Below are positions 3,750 to 51,096 of a DNA stretch of 56,846 bases, piece by piece. Origin of the DNA: Candidatus Faecimonas gallistercoris (lineage in GTDB: Bacteria; Bacillota_I; Bacilli_A; RF39; UBA660); assembly GCA_018712565.1 (NCBI GenBank), contig DVGU01000030.1, positions 1 to 56,846 on the forward strand, given 5' to 3'. The translations under genes and the position numbers were made by a program. The notes under the pieces were generated by a model that was not told the DNA's origin, searched no databases, and was given only the letters and a program-made list of their open reading frames with translations. The number at the start of each line of letters is the position of its first letter. Within the stretch, counting starts at the first letter, position 1.

Positions 3750-4874
3750 ATGAAAGAACAAATTCTAGATGCTAGCAAAATAGTGTTAATTACTTTTTTA
3801 TTTACAGCAGCAATTATTCCACTAATAAAAAGAATAGCTATACACGTAGATGCAATCGATGTTCCACGGGCTGATGAAGGCCATAGGCATATTCATAAAA
3901 AAGCAACCCCTATGTTAGGTGGCGTAGGTATCTTTTTAGGTTTTTTATTTGGTTATATGTTGTTTGGAGAACAAAGTATCAGGATGAATTCAATTTTAAT
4001 AGGAAGTTTCATTATTATATTGACTGGAATTATAGATGACATAAAACCAATAAGGGCATATCAAAAACTAATTGGTCATATAGTGGCTGCCTGTATTATC
4101 GTATTTTATGGACGGATAACACTAGATAATATTTCAGCATTTGGATTTTCTTTAGACTTTGGAATCTTTGCTCCATGGATTACAATTTTATTTATTGTAG
4201 CATGTACTAATATTATAAATTTAATAGATGGAGCCGATGGATTAAGTGGTGGAGTAGCTTCTATCTTTTACCTAACAATAGGAATTATAGGTTTTTATCA
4301 AGGAAGAGGCGGTAGCCTAGTTATGGTATTAACATTTATTATGCTTGGTTCAACACTAGGATTCTTACTACATAACTTTTATCCTGCTAAAATATTTGCT
4401 GGAGATTGCGCTACATTTATGGGATTTATTATTTCAATTATTACATTATTGGAATTTAAAGGTCCAGCATTAACATCGTTCTTTGTACCAATAATGATAC
4501 TTGGTATACCAATTCTAGATACTCTATTTGCTATTATTAGAAGATTATTAAAAGGAAAACCCCCTTTTCAAGCAGATAAACAGCATCTACACCATCAATT
4601 ATTAGGAATGAATTTTTCACAAAGGACAACGGTGTTAATTATATATGGTATAAATCTACTATTTGCAGCAGCATCTATTCTTTATACAATCAAAGATCCA
4701 GTTTTAGGAAAGATAGTATATATTATAATATTTATTATTGTATTGTGGTTTGTACTACATACTACAATTATTTCTGATAAAACTCCAACTAGAACAAAAA
4801 AGATAGAAGAGAAATTTTCGTTTTTCAGAAAAAAATCACCTAAAACTAAAAAAAGAGAAAAGCCTGCTAGATAA
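3750..4874 (+). CDS. tagO: undecaprenyl-phosphate GlcNAc-1-phosphate transferase (MraY/WecA/TagO family, GT4)
   Basis: Polytopic membrane protein with the NLIDGADGL motif. ATG 3750 follows an AGGAAG SD. Confidence 0.75.
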   Translation: MKEQILDASKIVLITFLFTAAIIPLIKRIAIHVDAIDVPRADEGHRHIHKKATPMLGGVGIFLGFLFGYMLFGEQSIRMNSILIGSFIIILTGIIDDIKPIRAYQKLIGHIVAACIIVFYGRITLDNISAFGFSLDFGIFAPWITILFIVACTNIINLIDGADGLSGGVASIFYLTIGIIGFYQGRGGSLVMVLTFIMLGSTLGFLLHNFYPAKIFAGDCATFMGFIISIITLLEFKGPALTSFFVPIMILGIPILDTLFAIIRRLLKGKPPFQADKQHLHHQLLGMNFSQRTTVLIIYGINLLFAAASILYTIKDPVLGKIVYIIIFIIVLWFVLHTTIISDKTPTRTKKIEEKFSFFRKKSPKTKKREKPAR

Positions 4875-4886
4875 TAGCAGTTTTTA
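4864..4886 (+). terminator. intrinsic terminator of tagO
   Basis: CTGCTA/TAGCAG stem overlapping the stop codon, followed by a T-run. Confidence 0.5.
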
Positions 4887-4930
4887 TTTAATAAATAACT
4901 GGAAAAATATGGAAACCAAAGGAGTGCAAT

Positions 4931-5662
4931 ATGATTAATTTTATAATTTGTGAAGATGAACCAGAATTATTAAAAGAGTACCAAAAACAAATAGATAAAT
5001 TTATGATGAAATATGATATTGATTATAAATGTTATATTTTCAATTGCTATAGTAAAGACTGGAAGAAAGCAGCAAAAAATATTAAAGGTTTTAAAATATT
5101 TTTACTAGATATAAAAACAGATGATGGATCTGGTATAGACGCAGCTAGATTAATAAGAGAAGAATATGATGACTGGGTCTCAATGATTATTATGATATCA
5201 GGATTCCCAGAATATAAATATGAAGCATTAGGTAAAAGATTAATGCTAGTAGACTTTATTAATAAATTAGATCATCCTACCAAGAAATTACAAGATTCCC
5301 TATTAATTTGTATGAAAAACTATGATAACAAATATAAAAGTTTAAAATATACATATAAAAATGTAGCATACAATATTGAGTTTAGAAATATTATCAAAAT
5401 AGAAAAAGAAATGGATAGTAAAAGATGTATTATTTATGCAGATGATACCCTATATCATATTCAAGGTTCACTAAATGATATTTTAAAAAGACTAGATAAA
5501 AGATTCTTTAAATGTAATCGAGGAGTAGCAATTAATATAGAACAAATACAAAGTTATAACTTTACTAAAAATGTAGTAGTCCTAAAAAATGGTGAAGAAT
5601 TCAAAGACATATCAAGAAGTAAAAGAAGGGAGTTGTATAATCGTGTTAGAGGTGTTGTCTGA
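4931..5662 (+). CDS. LytTR-family response regulator (AgrA-like)
   Basis: N-terminal receiver domain (FLLDIKTDDGSG) and a C-terminal LytTR-like region (FFKCNRGVAINIEQI). Adjacent to an AgrC-like kinase and to agrBD. Confidence 0.8.
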   Translation: MINFIICEDEPELLKEYQKQIDKFMMKYDIDYKCYIFNCYSKDWKKAAKNIKGFKIFLLDIKTDDGSGIDAARLIREEYDDWVSMIIMISGFPEYKYEALGKRLMLVDFINKLDHPTKKLQDSLLICMKNYDNKYKSLKYTYKNVAYNIEFRNIIKIEKEMDSKRCIIYADDTLYHIQGSLNDILKRLDKRFFKCNRGVAINIEQIQSYNFTKNVVVLKNGEEFKDISRSKRRELYNRVRGVV

Positions 5663-6932
5663 AATAATAGGATTGACAATAATGACAATAGCTGGATTTT
5701 ATATAATAAAAAAGATAATAGAAAGCAATCAAAAAATAACAAGTGCTAAAAATATATCTATAGTGGCACTTGGAGTTGTGATACCATTAATGATTTATCA
5801 AGTAGAATATAAAAGTATATACACACTAATAACCTACCTAACTAATATAATAATATATAAGCTTATTTTTAAAGAAAATATAGGAAAATCTATTATTCTT
5901 ACAAGTATAGCAATGATAATAACATTTATAGCAGATTTACTATTTTCAATTATAATAATACCTTTCTTTGATGTGAAAGATATAAGGGGGATATGGTATC
6001 TTAAAATAATTTCAAATATAGCTATTTTGATAATAAGTATTGTGCTATTAAAAATATTAGAAAAAATGAAAATTTTAAAGAAAATAAATAAAATGACTAA
6101 TACTATGGAAAATACATCTCTTATATTATTTTTAATTCTTTTAATAGTTGTAATTACAATTTTTGCTTATAATTCGTATACAATATTTAAATGGAATGAA
6201 GAGTATATTTTAAATATTATCTTAATAATAGTATTCTTACTATTATTATATATTTTTCTAAGAGAAAAAACGAATTATGAAAAATTAAGTGGAGAGTATG
6301 ACATGTTATTTTCATATGTTCAAAATTTCGAAGACTGGATAGAAAGAGAACAGTTAAATCGCCATGAATATAAAAATCAATTAGCTGTATTGCGCTGTTT
6401 AACAAAAGAAAAGAAAGTAAAAAATAAGATTGATGAAATTTTAGAGGATAATATTAATATTGAAGGACAAGCTGTAACAAATTTAAAAAGTCTTCCAAAA
6501 GGCGGAATTAAAGGGTTAATGTATTATAAAGCTGCAATTGCTCAAAAGTACAAAATAAATCTCACAACAGATGTAAGTATTGAAAGTAGTGGAATATTAA
6601 CAAAGTTATCAGAGAGGGATATTCGAGTATTGTGTAAACTAATAGGAATATATTTTGATAATGCCATTGAGGCTGCTCAAGAAAGTCGAAAGAAAAATAT
6701 ATCAATTGAAATATATGAATTAAAAGATAAAGTAAGTTTTGTATTTTCTAATACATTTAAAAAATATAAAAATATGAAAGATAGAAATAAAAAAGGTGTA
6801 TCTTCAAAAGGAGAAGGTCGAGGAAATGGACTATACTTTGCAGCAAAATTAATCAAAGAAAACCCGTGGATAACAGAAAAGCAGGAAATAATTGATAATT
6901 ATTATATACAACAAATAATCATAAAAAAATAA
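5643..6932 (+). CDS. AgrC-like sensor histidine kinase (polytopic sensor plus GHKL ATPase)
   Basis: About 6 TM helices, H-box RHEYKNQLAVL, G-box GEGRGNGLY. The start is uncertain: GTG 5643, or ATG 5682. The track start at 5589 lies inside the regulator gene. Confidence 0.75.
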   Translation: MLEVLSEIIGLTIMTIAGFYIIKKIIESNQKITSAKNISIVALGVVIPLMIYQVEYKSIYTLITYLTNIIIYKLIFKENIGKSIILTSIAMIITFIADLLFSIIIIPFFDVKDIRGIWYLKIISNIAILIISIVLLKILEKMKILKKINKMTNTMENTSLILFLILLIVVITIFAYNSYTIFKWNEEYILNIILIIVFLLLLYIFLREKTNYEKLSGEYDMLFSYVQNFEDWIEREQLNRHEYKNQLAVLRCLTKEKKVKNKIDEILEDNINIEGQAVTNLKSLPKGGIKGLMYYKAAIAQKYKINLTTDVSIESSGILTKLSERDIRVLCKLIGIYFDNAIEAAQESRKKNISIEIYELKDKVSFVFSNTFKKYKNMKDRNKKGVSSKGEGRGNGLYFAAKLIKENPWITEKQEIIDNYYIQQIIIKK

Positions 6933-6952
6933 AAGGTTTTCATAACAAAAAA

Positions 6953-7004
6953 AGAATAACTTAATATTATGCTATATAAAAATAGCTAATAAACAAGTTA
7001 TTCT
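6953..7004. terminator. bidirectional terminator between the convergent agrC-like and agrD-like genes
   Basis: Perfect 10-nt inverted repeat AGAATAACTT / AAGTTATTCT, with an inner GCTAT/ATAGC stem. Confidence 0.55.
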
Positions 7005-7027
7005 GTTCATATGTGTTATTTAATTGC

Positions 7028-7153
7028 TTAGTCTATTAAAAAATCGCTGTTACATTGAGGTTCGTCACAAACCCACCACATACACCCAAAACTTGCCGCT
7101 CCAGTTGCCATCATCGCAACTGCTCCCAAAATCATTGACAATCTTTTTTTCAT
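7028..7153 (-). CDS. agrD: AgrD-like autoinducing-peptide precursor (41 aa), not in the ORF track
   Basis: MKKRLSMILGAVAMMATGAASFGCMWWVCDEPQCNSDFLID. AAGGAGAG SD. Starts 34 nt downstream of agrB. The C-x4-x-E-P pattern is typical of clostridial/listerial AgrD. Confidence 0.7.
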   Translation of the reverse strand: MKKRLSMILGAVAMMATGAASFGCMWWVCDEPQCNSDFLID

Positions 7154-7187
7154 ATTCTCTCTCCTTTACTTAAATTTATATTAAATA

Positions 7188-7802
7188 CTATTTTGTATTT
7201 AACATCTTATAATTATTATAAGGTTCTCCAAACAATTTATAAGTAAGTGGACTAACAACAATAGTTTGTATAATCATTGCAGAAAGTATAATTGAAGTCC
7301 AATAATTACTATTTAATAAAATAATAGCTAATGTATAAATACAACCAATCAAAACAGTAACTATTTTACGAATAATTCTCTTTCTTTTATTAGGAAGAGG
7401 TCTTTTTTTAGTATCTGCAGGTGCAAACAATAAATAATGACTAACACAAATACTACTGATGATATATATAACTGAAATAGAAATATTTATATTTAATAAA
7501 AAGTAAGGTATAACAATAAAACTAAAAGTTGAAAATAACAAACACTGATAACTTTTACCAGCATGAAAACCAAAACCGGTATACCGAATAACATTAAATA
7601 ATAAAATAACTAAAACAAACTCCTTTACTATATCTAAAATTATTGCTAGAAATAATAACACAACTAATTTAGTAACAGTTAGATATATCCCTTCTAACCC
7701 ATATCTTAACTTTTTTATATCATTCTCAGAAAAAGCTTGATATTTACAAATAAAATTGATACCATAATCTAAAACCAATTGTTTCACAATATTCATCTCC
7801 AA
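7188..7802 (-). CDS. agrB: AgrB family accessory gene regulator (membrane peptidase that processes AgrD)
   Basis: Polytopic protein with RYTGFGFHAGKSYQC (conserved His/Cys pair) and APADTKKRP. The exact start is uncertain (TTG 7802, ATG 7796 or GTG 7787). Confidence 0.8.
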   Translation of the reverse strand: MEMNIVKQLVLDYGINFICKYQAFSENDIKKLRYGLEGIYLTVTKLVVLLFLAIILDIVKEFVLVILLFNVIRYTGFGFHAGKSYQCLLFSTFSFIVIPYFLLNINISISVIYIISSICVSHYLLFAPADTKKRPLPNKRKRIIRKIVTVLIGCIYTLAIILLNSNYWTSIILSAMIIQTIVVSPLTYKLFGEPYNNYKMLNTK

Positions 7803-7881
7803 CTATTTTATATAACAATTATAGACCCAAAAAAAACGTGTACATAAAAAAAGCATCAAAAAAAATATATAAAGTTAAATT

Positions 7882-7898
7882 TGTCGAATTTTGTCGAA
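7882..7898. promoter_or_regulatory. two tandem perfect Spo0A boxes (TGTCGAA), 10 bp centre to centre
   Basis: TTTGTCGAATTTTGTCGAAAA lies in the agrB/csp divergent intergenic region. Matches the B. subtilis 0A-box consensus TGNCGAA. Confidence 0.5.
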
Positions 7899-8027
7899 AA
7901 AGGTCCTATTTGCACCGAACAGGGACTGGTTATAGATAATTAAAGGAATTTATGTAAAAATGGATAATATTCTTGATACTATAAACTCACCAAGGAAATG
8001 TTGTTGGTAGAAATGAGGTGTATATGC

Positions 8028-8249
8028 ATGATGGTTGGACGCGTAAAGTGGTTCAATAATGATAAGGGTTATGGCTTTATCGAATACAAAGAAAATGAAG
8101 ATGTTTTTGTACATTATTCAGCAATTCAGATAGATGGCTATAAGACATTATCTGAAGGTCAACTAGTGGAATTTAAGTTGGTAGAAACAAGCAAAGGTTA
8201 CCAAGCTTTAAATGTGAAATTAGTTAAAGAAACTGCTACTGCTAAATAG
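8028..8249 (+). CDS. cold-shock protein (CspA family, S1-like OB fold)
   Basis: [15 protein letters not shown] and [11 protein letters not shown] motifs. ATG 8028 lies 7 nt after a GAGGTG SD. Confidence 0.9.
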
Positions 8250-8300
8250 TAGTTTTTTTTTATAAATTGTGCTATACTACAAGTATAAGGAGGTGATAGT

Positions 8301-8831
8301 ATGGAAATTATTATTCATGGAGATAAACTAAAAGTTACTGATTCTATGAAAGAGTACATTAAGGAAAAATTAAACAAGTTAAATAAGTATTTAGAAAATA
8401 GTGATAATGTTCGTGCTTCTGTCATAGTTAAAGTAAAAAATCATGAACAACGAGTAGAAATTACCATACCACTAAAAGCATATATTTTAAGATCAGAAGA
8501 GTCAAAAGATGACTTCTATGCAGCTGTTGATAAAACAGTTGACAAATTAGAAAGACAAATCAGAAAAAACAAAACAAGAATTATGTCTAAGCAAGGAAAG
8601 ACAAATCGTGATTTTGTTATATCTGAATTTGAAAAAGAAGATTTATCCGATGAAAGAAAGATTTTAAAAAGAAAGAAAGTTGAAGTAAAACCAATGAACG
8701 AAGAAGAGGCAATACTTCAAATGGAGCTATTAGGTCACCAATTCTATATGTATAAAGATAGAGATACAAGCGAAATGATGGTTGTGTATAAAAGAACAGA
8801 TGGTAATTATGGAATTATCGAACCTGAATAG
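8301..8831 (+). CDS. hpf: ribosome hibernation-promoting factor (long HPF/YvyD)
   Basis: 176 aa, sigma-54-modulation/S30EA fold plus a C-terminal dimerisation domain. Immediately upstream of secA, as in B. subtilis. Confidence 0.9.
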   Translation: MEIIIHGDKLKVTDSMKEYIKEKLNKLNKYLENSDNVRASVIVKVKNHEQRVEITIPLKAYILRSEESKDDFYAAVDKTVDKLERQIRKNKTRIMSKQGKTNRDFVISEFEKEDLSDERKILKRKKVEVKPMNEEEAILQMELLGHQFYMYKDRDTSEMMVVYKRTDGNYGIIEPE

Positions 8832-50322: not shown

Positions 50323-51096
50323 ATGAAAAAGACAAAAGTATTAGTAGTAGATGATAATAAGAGTTTAGTAGAAATGATTAAGGAGTACTTCACAGAACGT
50401 CCTGATGTCACAATTTCGCTAGAGGCTTATGATGGTGCAGAGGGAATTCGTTTGATAGAAAAGAAACAAGATGAGTATGATATCGTTCTATTAGATTTAA
50501 TCATGCCTAATAAAGATGGAGTTGCAGTACTGGAATATATGAAGAAAAAATCAATTGATAAAAAAGTAATTGTCCTAACTTCATATAATACACAAGATAT
50601 GATTCGTAAAGTTTCTGAATTAGGAGTAAATTACTTTATTCTGAAACCATTTGAGTTAGAAGACTTAGAAAAGAGAATATTAGAAGTAGCCGAAGGTGTA
50701 AAGTTTGGTGGCAAAGAAGTAGACGTATATCATAACAATCTACAAATTGCTATTACCAAAACATTACATGAATTAGGTGTACCTTCACATATAAAAGGAT
50801 ATCAATATATTAGAGAAAGTATTTCTTTAGTATATGAAAGACCAGAAATAGTCGGTGGGATTACGAAAGAATTATATCCCGAAGTAGCAAAGAAATTTAA
50901 TACAACCGTATCTCGTGTAGAAAGAGCCATAAGACATGCAATTGAGGTAAGTTGGAATAGAGGTAACTGGCAATTGATGGAGGAGATATTTGGACATAGC
51001 GTAGATATTGATAAAGCCAAACCAACCAATTCAGAATTTATTGTAACAGTAGCCGATAAATTAAGATTAGAATTTAGTAAACCATTAGCAAATTAA
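50323..51096 (+). CDS. spo0A: sporulation master regulator Spo0A
   Basis: Receiver (VLVVDDN, LLDLIMP, LKPF) plus the diagnostic Spo0A C-terminal domain ([55 protein letters not shown]). ATG 50323 follows a GAGAGGAG SD. Confidence 0.93.

What the first reader, a model, noticed from the sequence alone, without database searches (positions are those of the whole stretch)
4931..7802. agr-type quorum-sensing locus with an unlisted AgrD gene and a convergent layout
The ORF track lacks a 41-codon gene at 7028-7153 (minus strand). It has a good SD and starts 34 nt after agrB. It encodes MKKRLSMILGAVAMMATGAASFGCMWWVCDEPQCNSDFLID. The C-x4 followed by x-E-P pattern matches AgrD propeptides I recall: Clostridium perfringens ..CLWFTHQPEEP.., Listeria ..CFMFVYEPKSP.., S. 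aureus ..CDFIMDEVEVP... This predicts a five-residue thiolactone ring, CMWWV. Two features are unusual. First, the propeptide has three cysteines, one immediately after the predicted ring and one in the very short acidic tail. Second, the operon is split into agrA-agrC-like genes (+ strand) convergent with agrB-agrD (- strand), sharing a bidirectional terminator, rather than the usual agrBDCA layout.
Basis: partly seen in the sequence, partly recalled or inferred. Interest (0 to 1): 0.6.

Follow-up and report, generated by a model that had tools for sequence, protein, structure and literature searches.

The report
Convergent agr quorum-sensing locus, swappable alleles
This is a real peptide quorum-sensing (agr-type) gene set from an uncultured small-genome gut bacterium, including a genuine 41-codon signal-peptide gene; the system is a well-known kind, but the signal ring is probably six residues rather than five, and the species carries at least five interchangeable signal-plus-receptor versions.

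Summary
Observation confirmed. The 41-codon ORF at 7028-7153(-) exists, has a Shine-Dalgarno site, and lies 34 nt after an AgrB gene (Pfam 3.9e-30). It converges on a LytTR response regulator and an AgrC-like kinase. The peptide itself hits no AgrD profile. Its syntenic orthologues in sister genera pass TIGR04223 (22.8-36.4 bits, cut-off 19). The conservation pattern is classic AgrD: conserved leader, invariant Cys24, hypervariable core, conserved D/E-E-P.

- The spacing is C-x5-D-E-P, the same register as Clostridium acetobutylicum CVLVTL|YEP, a confirmed six-membered ring. The predicted ring is therefore CMWWVC, not CMWWV.
- Cys29 and Cys34 are not conserved.
- The hairpin terminator is allele-specific and has a clean U-tract only on the agrBD side.

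The convergent layout is ancestral to the whole family at one fixed chromosomal site.

Contigs from the same species have 99-100% identical flanks, agrA and agrB. They carry at least five different cassettes made of agrC plus the agrD core, with breakpoints near 5653 and 7085.

This scan has already reported the same kind of locus on other DNA (31 notes).

The parts
4931..5662 (+). agrA-like response regulator (243 aa). It has a receiver domain with an E8-D9 acidic pair and a predicted phospho-acceptor at D60, plus a LytTR DNA-binding domain.
   Evidence: Pfam LytTR 3e-13. Response_reg scores 20.1 bits, below the 30.2 cut-off. NCBIfam AgrA equivalog 4e-13, far below its cut-off. Residue positions. 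The gene is 99.7-99.9% nt identical in same-species contigs that carry other alleles.
5643..6932 (+). agrC-like sensor histidine kinase (429 aa from GTG 5643; the longest ORF starts at 5589). About six hydrophobic segments lie in residues 1-206. It has an H-box RHEYKNQL (H241), an N-box FDNAIEA and a G-box GEGRGNGLY.
   Evidence: Pfam HATPase_c_5 1.9e-7. NCBIfam AgrC 4.4e-14, below cut-off. Motifs and hydropathy. The N-terminus MLEVL is shared with 5 of 8 genus relatives, and a 20-nt overlap with the RR gene is seen in public gene calls. The sensor half is about 35% identical within the genus and the cytoplasmic half about 83%.
5654..7085 (.). Allelic (pherotype) cassette. It contains all of agrC except its first codons, the spacer, and agrD codons about 23-41 (ring plus C-terminal tail). 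In other members of the same species it is replaced by unrelated or diverged sequence.
   Evidence: Same-species contigs L119, L121 and L123 have flanks, RR, agrB and the agrD leader at 96-100% nt identity. The sensor, spacer and agrD 3' part show no detectable nt similarity, and the kinase cytoplasmic half is 81-86% identical. The breakpoints were read from the alignment. A fifth allele is on L128.
6953..7004 (-). AT-rich hairpin followed on the minus strand by U7 (6946-6952). It is the likely intrinsic terminator of agrBD. On the plus strand it is followed only by an interrupted U-rich stretch.
   Evidence: Folds (z = -3.3 and -3.4). The consensus scan did not call it. The spacer is not conserved: the HK-agrD gap ranges from -11 to +230 nt in the genus.
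7028..7153 (-). agrD, a 41-aa autoinducing-peptide precursor. It has a signal-peptide-like leader (1-23), the ring-forming Cys24, a hypervariable core (25-29), a conserved D30-E31-P32, and a short acidic tail.
   Evidence: for the ORF. Alignments A1 and A2. Syntenic orthologues pass TIGR04223. The ring sequence co-varies with the kinase sensor.
7188..7802 (-). agrB, the AgrD-processing membrane peptidase. The ORF runs to TTG 7802 (204 aa). The likely start is GTG 7787 (199 aa), preceded by GGAG at 7800-7797. It carries a catalytic-type H80-x6-C87 motif.
   Evidence: Pfam AgrB 3.9e-30, 105 bits against a 23-bit cut-off. NCBIfam PRK01100 1.2e-28. It is the only AgrB in the genome. Public calls of 199 aa in the same species. 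Motif.
7818..7823 (-). Conserved TATAAT, the candidate -10 element of the agrBD promoter.
   Evidence: Conserved column block in the genus alignment of the agrB-csp intergenic region.
7882..7898 (+). Two TGTCGAA (Spo0A-box) copies 10 bp apart, about 60-75 nt upstream of the candidate agrBD -10. They are invariant across the genus.
   Evidence: Alignment: TTTTCGACAAnnTTCGACA is identical in all 9 sequences. A Spo0A gene is present in the same window, matching at 50752-51063. The boxes were first noted in e1-3366127.

Best explanation
The region is a complete agr-type peptide quorum-sensing system built as two converging transcription units.

Shown by profile, motif or comparison:
- agrB (7188-7787/7802, minus strand) encodes the membrane peptidase.
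- agrD (7028-7153, minus strand) encodes its 41-aa substrate.
- agrA-like (4931-5662) and agrC-like (5643-6932) genes on the plus strand encode the LytTR regulator and the multi-pass kinase.

Inferred mechanism:
1. AgrB recognises the conserved D30-E31-P32 region and cleaves before D30.
2. AgrB joins the carbonyl of residue 29 to the thiol of Cys24, making a six-residue macrocycle, CMWWVC.
3. The signal-peptide-like leader is removed just before Cys24, where Ser occupies -3 and Gly -1.
4. With no N-terminal tail, the thiolactone would rearrange (S to N acyl shift) into a head-to-tail lactam, as shown for clostridial AIPs.
5. The peptide is sensed by the hypervariable membrane half of the kinase, which signals through the LytTR regulator. 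The regulator's targets are unknown.

agrBD is probably driven by Spo0A through two invariant 0A boxes, not by an AgrA-type direct repeat. No such repeat is conserved here.

At the population level, agrC plus the agrD core form one contiguous 1.4-kb cassette with at least five alleles in this species. agrB and agrA stay constant. One AgrB therefore has to process several different cores.
For: AgrB:
- PF04647 at 3.9e-30.
- H-x6-C motif.
- Single copy in the genome.

AgrD:
- The ORF sits downstream of agrB in 18 of 20 genus genomes and in other genera of the family.
- Cys24 and E31 are invariant, P32 is nearly invariant, the leader is conserved, and the five residues after Cys are hypervariable.
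- Syntenic orthologues score 22.8-36.4 bits on TIGR04223 against a 19-bit cut-off.
- 10 of 20 alignment members match TIGR04223 and 4 of 20 match PF05931, at E-values up to 10.

Ring register:
- C. acetobutylicum AgrD reads ...GKCVLVTLYEPKMPEEL.
- Its AIP was detected as a six-membered macrocycle with no N-terminal extension. Rc-AIP1 is CWFWSY. Both rearrange to lactams (PMC8251862).

Ligand-receptor link:
- Sensors that pair with similar rings are similar. CMWFMV and CIWFMV pair with sensors 82% identical. CIWMLI and CIWMLI pair with sensors 95% identical. The background is 26-47%.
- The sensor half is about 35% identical within the genus, against about 83% for the catalytic half and 90-94% for flanking genes.

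Cassette.

Layout: convergent at the same tagO | csp-hpf-secA site across the family.

Spo0A: boxes, gene.
Against: - The window's own peptide matches neither PF05931 nor TIGR04223. It lacks the second Pro of the P-x-x-P motif and the basic PKSLIK-type tail.
- The sixth core position is chemically mixed across homologues (C, V, N, S, G, A, I, F). The fifth is almost always hydrophobic. That would suit a five-residue ring ending at V28.
- The leader fits a permissive lipobox pattern, and the genome has Lgt and Lsp.
- No peptide has been observed.
- The Spo0A link rests on a motif only. The boxes could serve the divergent csp gene.
- The receiver domain of the regulator scores below Pfam's cut-off.
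Confidence: 0.85

Rival explanations
1. One reading: the same agr system, but AgrB cleaves after Val28. The AIP is then the five-residue thiolactone CMWWV, and Cys29 is the first residue of the discarded tail.
For: - Five-residue rings are the commonest AIP type. The Listeria AIP is CFMFV (PMC4916163). The C. perfringens 5R peptide is likely the natural signal (PMC7492741).
- Core position 4 after Cys is almost always hydrophobic. Position 5 includes N, S, G and A. C-terminal ring residues of known AIPs are usually hydrophobic (recalled from the S. aureus AIPs).
Against: - Anchored on the conserved E-P, the peptide has one residue more than the five-ring register C-x4-x-E-P.
- It has exactly the register of C. 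acetobutylicum CVLVTL|YEP, whose six-membered product was detected.
- The C-x5-[DE]-E-P spacing is constant in all family orthologues.
Confidence: 0.27
2. The small ORF is an ordinary Sec or lipoprotein precursor. Its mature 17-aa part is a secreted or lipid-anchored peptide unrelated to AgrB processing.
For: - The leader MKKR-LSMILGAVAMMATGAAS-FG-C has the n-region, h-region and small -1 residue before Cys of a lipoprotein signal peptide (read from the sequence).
- Two homologues weakly match NCBIfam LP_plasma (E = 1.6).
- Lgt, Lsp and signal peptidase I are all encoded in the genome.
Against: - The ORF always lies directly after agrB.
- Orthologues grade continuously into peptides that pass the AgrD model.
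- The residues after Cys are hypervariable and are swapped together with the kinase sensor.
- Position -3 is Ser in almost all genus homologues. The genome's 14 candidate lipoproteins have L, I, V, T or G there, and their h-regions are rich in Leu, Ile and Phe rather than Ala, Gly and Met.
Confidence: 0.03
3. The locus is a decaying or silent remnant that no longer signals.
For: - The genome is reduced (1.29 Mb).
- The receiver domain and the AgrC/AgrA equivalog scores are low.
- No expression data are available.
Against: - All four ORFs are intact, and the catalytic motifs are present.
- The locus is retained at the same site in many genera.
- Several full-length alleles are maintained within the species.
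- The allele carried by this window is on 51 public contigs.
Confidence: 0.03

Closest known systems
Clostridium acetobutylicum agrBD / agrCA system and its AIP cyclo-CVLVTL (PMC10301443; PMC8251862)
   Same: - Same C-x5-x-E-P register in AgrD, predicting a six-residue macrocycle.
- Separate agrBD and agrCA transcription units.
- No N-terminal tail is expected, so rearrangement to a lactam is likely.
- Both occur in organisms that carry sporulation genes.
   Different: - There, the two units point the same way, the leader is amphipathic, and the tail keeps P-x-x-P (YEPKMPEEL).
- Here, the units converge, the leader looks like a signal peptide, and the tail (DEPQCNSDFLID) has lost the second Pro and the basic end. 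The AgrD profiles therefore fail.
- No LanM-like CA_C0082 gene lies next to the locus.
Staphylococcus aureus agrBDCA with specificity groups I-IV
   Same: - Same four protein types.
- Within-species pherotypes, with co-varying signal and receptor sensor domain and a conserved regulator.
   Different: - S. aureus has one operon with an autoregulated P2 promoter plus RNAIII. Its five-residue ring carries a tail. Its variable region covers the C-terminal part of AgrB, AgrD and the N-terminal half of AgrC (recalled knowledge).
- Here agrB is constant, with one amino-acid difference among the three alleles for which complete agrB sequences were compared.
- Here the cassette is the whole of agrC plus the agrD core.
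- No Rfam RNA was found, and no LytTR-type repeat is conserved.
Convergent agrAC/agrBD loci of small-genome gut Bacilli and Clostridia already noted by this scan (e1-983597, e1-738118, e1-1397169)
   Same: - Same layout.
- 39-41-aa AgrD with no assigned function.
- A six-residue ring argument.
- Swappable alleles.
   Different: - Different genomes.
- This window contributes one allele (CMWWVC, with two extra cysteines and a 95-nt spacer hairpin).
- It also adds the precise breakpoints in this species.

Membership tests
agr-type quorum sensing (AgrB/AgrD/AgrC/AgrA) | AgrB-family membrane peptidase (PF04647) above the curated cut-off | tested here: met
   105 bits against a 23-bit cut-off, E = 3.9e-30. 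Also 2.3e-30 in the whole-genome search.
agr-type quorum sensing (AgrB/AgrD/AgrC/AgrA) | AgrB catalytic His and Cys seven residues apart (S. aureus H77/C84, recalled) | tested here: met
   H80-AGKSYQ-C87.
AgrD precursor (TIGR04223 / PF05931) | Direct profile match of the peptide itself | tested here: not met
   No hit for the window peptide at E <= 1 or E <= 10. Two further genus-level homologues scanned individually also gave no TIGR04223 hit.
AgrD precursor (TIGR04223 / PF05931) | Homology to bona fide AgrD: alignable, syntenic orthologues that pass the curated cut-off | tested here: met
   Six family-level orthologues at the same position after agrB score 22.8-36.4 bits against a 19-bit cut-off. 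They align without gaps around Cys and E-P. tblastn identity to the window peptide is 50-57% for two of them.
AgrD precursor (TIGR04223 / PF05931) | Small ORF next to agrB with an invariant ring-forming Cys or Ser, a hypervariable core, and a conserved acidic/Pro recognition motif | tested here: met
   C24 and E31 are invariant and P32 is at least 90% conserved. Positions 25-29 are variable.
AgrD precursor (TIGR04223 / PF05931) | P-x-x-P motif in the C-terminal recognition region (PMC8748961) | tested here: not met
   The window has DEPQCNSD with no second Pro. Genus homologues mostly have DEP-N/D-S-x-x. More distant family orthologues keep DEPKMPKSL.
agr-type quorum sensing (AgrB/AgrD/AgrC/AgrA) | Multi-pass sensor kinase with an HPK10-type H-box and a GHKL (HATPase_c_5) domain | tested here: met
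   PF14501 at 31.4 bits against a 22-bit cut-off. About six hydrophobic segments and the RHEYKNQL H-box. The staphylococcal AgrC equivalog scores only 52.5 against 500, so it is AgrC-like and not an equivalog.
agr-type quorum sensing (AgrB/AgrD/AgrC/AgrA) | LytTR-family response regulator | tested here: met
   LytTR at 50.2 bits against a 22.6-bit cut-off. The receiver domain is below cut-off (20.1 against 30.2), but D60 is present.
agr-type quorum sensing (AgrB/AgrD/AgrC/AgrA) | Single agrBDCA operon with an AgrA-autoregulated promoter and a divergent effector RNA (staphylococcal archetype) | tested here: not met
   Two converging units. No conserved 21-bp-period direct repeat lies upstream of either unit. 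No Rfam family matches.
agr-type quorum sensing (AgrB/AgrD/AgrC/AgrA) | Signal and receptor co-vary (pherotypes) | tested here: met
   At least five alleles in one species. Sensor identity tracks ring similarity.
agr-type quorum sensing (AgrB/AgrD/AgrC/AgrA) | A secreted cyclic thiolactone or lactam peptide is made and activates the kinase | not testable with these tools
   This needs co-expression, mass spectrometry and reporter assays.
Bacterial lipoprotein precursor | Lipobox as used by the organism's own lipoproteins | tested here: inconclusive
   By inspection, the leader fits the permissive pattern used. However, -3 is Ser and -2 is Phe. The genome's 14 candidates have L, I, V, T or G at -3 and mostly T, S or A at -2.

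The most novel reading that the evidence does not exclude
The convergent layout is not incidental. It places the agrD core next to agrC, so that signal and receptor form one contiguous 1.4-kb pherotype cassette. Homologous recombination at the conserved agrD leader and at the agrA/agrC junction can then swap the cassette within and between species. A single generalist AgrB and a single AgrA serve all pherotypes. In this window's allele the product would be a six-residue lactam with two cysteines, able to close a second, disulfide ring.
Probability: 0.4. Interest if true: 0.5.

Novelty: new variant of a known kind. Interest (0 to 1): 0.33.

Why it matters
agr-type signalling is usually studied in pathogens. 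Here it is a core, vertically kept locus of a whole family of uncultured, small-genome gut Bacilli. It has a clean natural experiment built in: one species, one AgrB, one AgrA, and at least five signal/receptor pairs with sharp recombination breakpoints. That offers a ready set of cognate and non-cognate peptide-receptor pairs for studying specificity, AgrB substrate tolerance, and strain-level interference in the gut. On the practical side, standard AgrD models miss the peptide, so genome mining that relies on them undercounts this family. Ring-size prediction should be anchored on the E-P motif, not counted from the Cys.

Tried and rejected
- Direct Pfam and NCBIfam scans of the peptide gave no hit.
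- The listing of cluster members returned no source names for the peptide or its neighbours.
- The supplements of PMC8251862 are not held. The C. acetobutylicum AgrD sequence was taken from the supplement of PMC10301443 instead.
- I looked for a published convergent agr layout. The C. difficile 'agrACDB' papers only give a reversed gene order and argue for a single transcript, so I do not cite them as a precedent. One malformed paper search failed.
- I searched for conserved LytTR-type direct repeats upstream of agrB and of the regulator gene. The only conserved elements were the 10-bp-spaced 0A boxes, a -10 element and a TGGAAAAATTTGGAA-like element.
- The Rfam scan of 4500-8400 found nothing.
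- tblastn with the window's kinase was too insensitive outside the family. I replaced it with a local HMM.
- I rejected the idea that the extra cysteines are a conserved feature.
- I rejected the idea that the hairpin is a conserved bidirectional terminator.
Full report
**1. The observation**

The ORF listing gives a 41-aa ORF at 7028-7153(-) with exactly the quoted sequence. The minus-strand read shows AAAGGAG at 7167-7161, seven bases before the ATG at 7153. The ORF starts 34 nt after the stop of the upstream ORF 7188-7802(-).

Pfam assigns the four neighbouring products as follows:
- 7188-7802(-): AgrB, 3.9e-30, 105 bits against a 23-bit cut-off.
- 4931-5662(+): LytTR, 3e-13, with a weak receiver domain.
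- 5589-6932(+): HATPase_c_5, 1.9e-7.
- The 41-aa peptide: nothing.

NCBIfam agrees. It gives AgrB-like PRK01100 at 1.2e-28, and AgrA and AgrC equivalogs far below their cut-offs. It gives nothing for the peptide. The genome is a 1.29-Mb, 74-contig, 89%-complete assembly with only this one AgrB.

**2. Gene starts**

The kinase most likely starts at GTG 5643. That start gives the N-terminus MLEVL, which 5 of 8 genus relatives share. It also gives the same 20-nt overlap with the regulator gene that public gene calls show.

agrB most likely starts at GTG 7787 (199 aa), nine bases after GGAG. Public gene calls in the same species are also 199 aa.

**3. Is the small ORF a gene, and is it agrD?**

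A search of 5.8 billion proteins found 20 homologues of 39-51 aa. Their alignment shows the following pattern:
- an invariant MKKRL...A.A.MATG.A..GC block;
- five variable residues;
- then [D/E]-E-P;
- a final Asp.

In 60 related genomes, AgrB is found in 18 of 20 genomes of the genus and 29 of 36 of the family. A homologous small ORF follows agrB in essentially every locus long enough to show it.

The more distant family orthologues end in DEPKMPKSLIK, DEPECPKALIK and the like. Scanned individually, six of them pass the curated TIGR04223 AgrD cut-off, scoring 22.8-36.4 bits against 19. Of 20 aligned members, 10 match TIGR04223 and 4 match PF05931, at E-values up to 10.

The window peptide fails these profiles because its genus has lost the second Pro of the P-x-x-P motif and the basic tail. 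That motif is described in PMC8748961. Membership is therefore established by orthology, not by a direct profile hit.

The exact 41-aa sequence is already a called gene on 51 public contigs, but it carries no name.

**4. Ring size**

The sequence is C24-M-W-W-V-C29-D30-E31-P32, which has one residue more. The C-x5-[D/E]-E-P spacing holds across all 20 family sequences.

C. acetobutylicum AgrD reads ...GKCVLVTLYEPKMPEEL (supplement of PMC10301443). Its AIP was detected as a six-membered macrocycle without an N-terminal extension. Rc-AIP1 of Ruminiclostridium cellulolyticum is CWFWSY. Both rearrange from thiolactone to lactam (PMC8251862). Listeria makes the five-ring CFMFV (PMC4916163). From memory, its precursor reads CFMFV-YEP, so Pro again sits at P3'.

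With Pro at P3', the cleavage here falls between C29 and D30, and the ring is CMWWVC. I rate this reading at about 60-65%.

The five-ring reading keeps about 25-30%. The reason is that the fifth core position is almost always hydrophobic, while the sixth is chemically mixed.

Cys29 and Cys34 are not conserved. They are peculiarities of this allele. In a six-residue lactam they would leave two thiols in the ring, which is a speculative route to a disulfide.

**5. The leader**

The leader MKKR-LSMILGAVAMMATGAAS-FG-C looks like a signal peptide and fits a permissive lipobox pattern. The genome encodes Lgt, Lsp and signal peptidase I.

Fourteen candidate lipoproteins of the same genome have L, I, V, T or G at -3 and h-regions rich in Leu, Ile and Phe. 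AgrD has Ser at -3, Phe at -2, and an h-region rich in Ala, Gly and Met.

Ser at -3 and Gly at -1 fit the signal peptidase I rule (established knowledge). Cleavage there would leave Cys24 N-terminal, giving an AIP with no tail.

**6. Layout**

The order mreB, tagO-like, RR> HK> <agrD <agrB, csp> hpf> secA> is kept in all eight genus loci fetched. It is also kept in ten more loci from other genera of the family and one from a sister family. Not every one of these loci retains all the flanking genes. Eight further family genera are also convergent.

Outside the family, 11 AgrB loci of the same class had a detectable kinase within 1.5 kb. None was convergent. In 5 the kinase follows agrB on the same strand, and in 6 it precedes agrB on the same strand.

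The layout is therefore an ancestral, family-wide trait at a fixed housekeeping site. It is not a rearrangement peculiar to this genome.

Related records are labelled uncultured Bacilli, Tenericutes or Mycoplasmatota gut MAGs, Candidatus Faecimonas intestinavium, and Clostridium sp. CAG:417.

**7. Terminator**

The 95-nt spacer folds into an AT-rich hairpin at 6953-7004 (z about -3.3 on both strands). It has a U7 run only on the agrBD side. The consensus scan missed it.

In relatives, the gap between the kinase stop and the agrD stop ranges from -11 to +230 nt. Where the gap is 7-9 nt, a short hairpin straddles the agrD stop, and its U-run is the complement of the kinase's C-terminal Lys codons. 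The 'shared bidirectional terminator' is therefore only partly right and is not conserved.

**8. Diversification**

Within the genus, average amino-acid identities to the window are as follows:

| Segment | Identity |
|---|---|
| Flanking proteins | 85-94% |
| Regulator | 73-79% |
| AgrB | 62-68% |
| Kinase catalytic half | 83% |
| Kinase sensor half | 35% |

More telling are the contigs that carry other AgrD variants:
- L119 and L120 carry P0003, L121 and L122 carry P0006, and L123 carries P0005.
- Over mreB, tagO, the regulator gene, agrB, the agrB-csp spacer and csp they are 99-100% identical in nucleotides to the window; L123 is 94% in the agrB-csp spacer.
- hpf and secA are 95-99% identical.
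- The agrD leader is 96-97% identical.
- The kinase sensor, the spacer and the agrD ring and tail have no detectable nucleotide similarity.
- The kinase catalytic half is 81-86% identical.

The alignment puts the breakpoints near 5653, about ten bases into agrC, and near 7085, at agrD codon about 23. A short contig, L128, carries P0004 and has agrB 99% identical to the window. That adds a fifth allele.

AgrB differs by one residue (T180A) between the window and the three alleles with complete agrB sequences.

Sensor identity follows ring similarity across species borders:
- The CMWFMV allele of this species is 82% identical in the sensor to the CIWFMV allele of another species.
- It is only 33% identical to the window's own sensor.
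- Two CIWMLI alleles from different species are 95% identical.

This co-variation is good comparative evidence that the peptide core is the ligand of the converging kinase.

The cassette differs from the S. aureus variable region (recalled knowledge). It contains the whole of agrC and leaves out agrB.

**9. Regulation**

Upstream of agrB, the genus alignment shows only two conserved blocks. One is TTTTCGACAAnnTTCGACA, which is two Spo0A boxes at 7882-7898. The other is a TATAAT at 7823-7818. Spo0A is encoded in the same window. The boxes were flagged earlier in note e1-3366127, and I confirm their conservation.

Upstream of the regulator gene there is only the tagO terminator and a conserved TGGAAAAAT-ATGGAA element. 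No LytTR-type repeat pair is conserved. Rfam finds no RNA family.

**10. Comparison and novelty**

The system works like agr and is a divergent member of it. Six-membered rings, tail-less rearranging AIPs and separate agrBD and agrCA units are all published. AIP families of the gut have been mined at scale (PMC11953309).

I did not find a paper describing the convergent arrangement or a cassette that excludes agrB.

This scan has reported the same type of locus on other DNA: 31 notes, among them e1-983597, e1-738118 and e1-1397169. My tests agree with them independently.

The finding is therefore sound, corrected in detail, and of modest interest.

**11. Limits**

- No expression or peptide data are available.
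- Ring size, leader cleavage, Spo0A control and the regulon are inferences.

Noticed in passing
window 7882-7898: Two TGTCGAA Spo0A-type boxes 10 bp apart are invariant in all nine genus sequences aligned. Most of the rest of the agrB-csp spacer varies, apart from a TATAAT at 7823-7818 and a few short blocks. Spo0A is encoded at about 50.7-51.1 kb of the same window. This suggests sporulation-linked control of agrBD, or of the divergent csp gene.
   Followed up: partly
window 4899-4917: A conserved CTGGAAAAAT-ATGGAAAC element lies between the tagO terminator (4864-4880) and the regulator gene's ribosome-binding site in all genus relatives. It is the only candidate promoter or operator for the agrA-agrC unit, and its type is unclear.
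   Followed up: no
L032, L033, L034, L050 (gap 7-9 nt); L035 (11-nt overlap): In several sister species the converging kinase and agrD genes end 7-9 nt apart or overlap. The U-run of the agrD terminator is encoded by the complement of the kinase's C-terminal Lys codons. Converging transcripts must overlap there, so antisense interference is possible.
   Followed up: partly
L037 vs L125 and L050: In a sister species (tagO 100% identical between L037 and L125) the two agr alleles also differ in AgrB (85%). L125's AgrB and sensor are 99% and 95% identical to those of L050, from another species. The swapped segment can therefore include agrB in other lineages and seems to cross species borders.
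   Followed up: partly
L119, L120, L126 downstream of secA; L124 between hpf and secA: Same-species and sister-species contigs differ in what follows secA: Fic, NUDIX or a phage-type integrase. One contig has a 452-aa gene with no Pfam hit between hpf and secA. This is consistent with the secA-end insertion hotspot noted in e1-3366121.
   Followed up: no
L031 (G037, sister family): I did not recognise a Cys-type AgrD ORF after agrB in this locus. The best downstream ORF ends ...KVSALYEKEMPKHMLNK and has no Cys in the core. It may be a Ser/Thr-lactone type or a different precursor.
   Followed up: no
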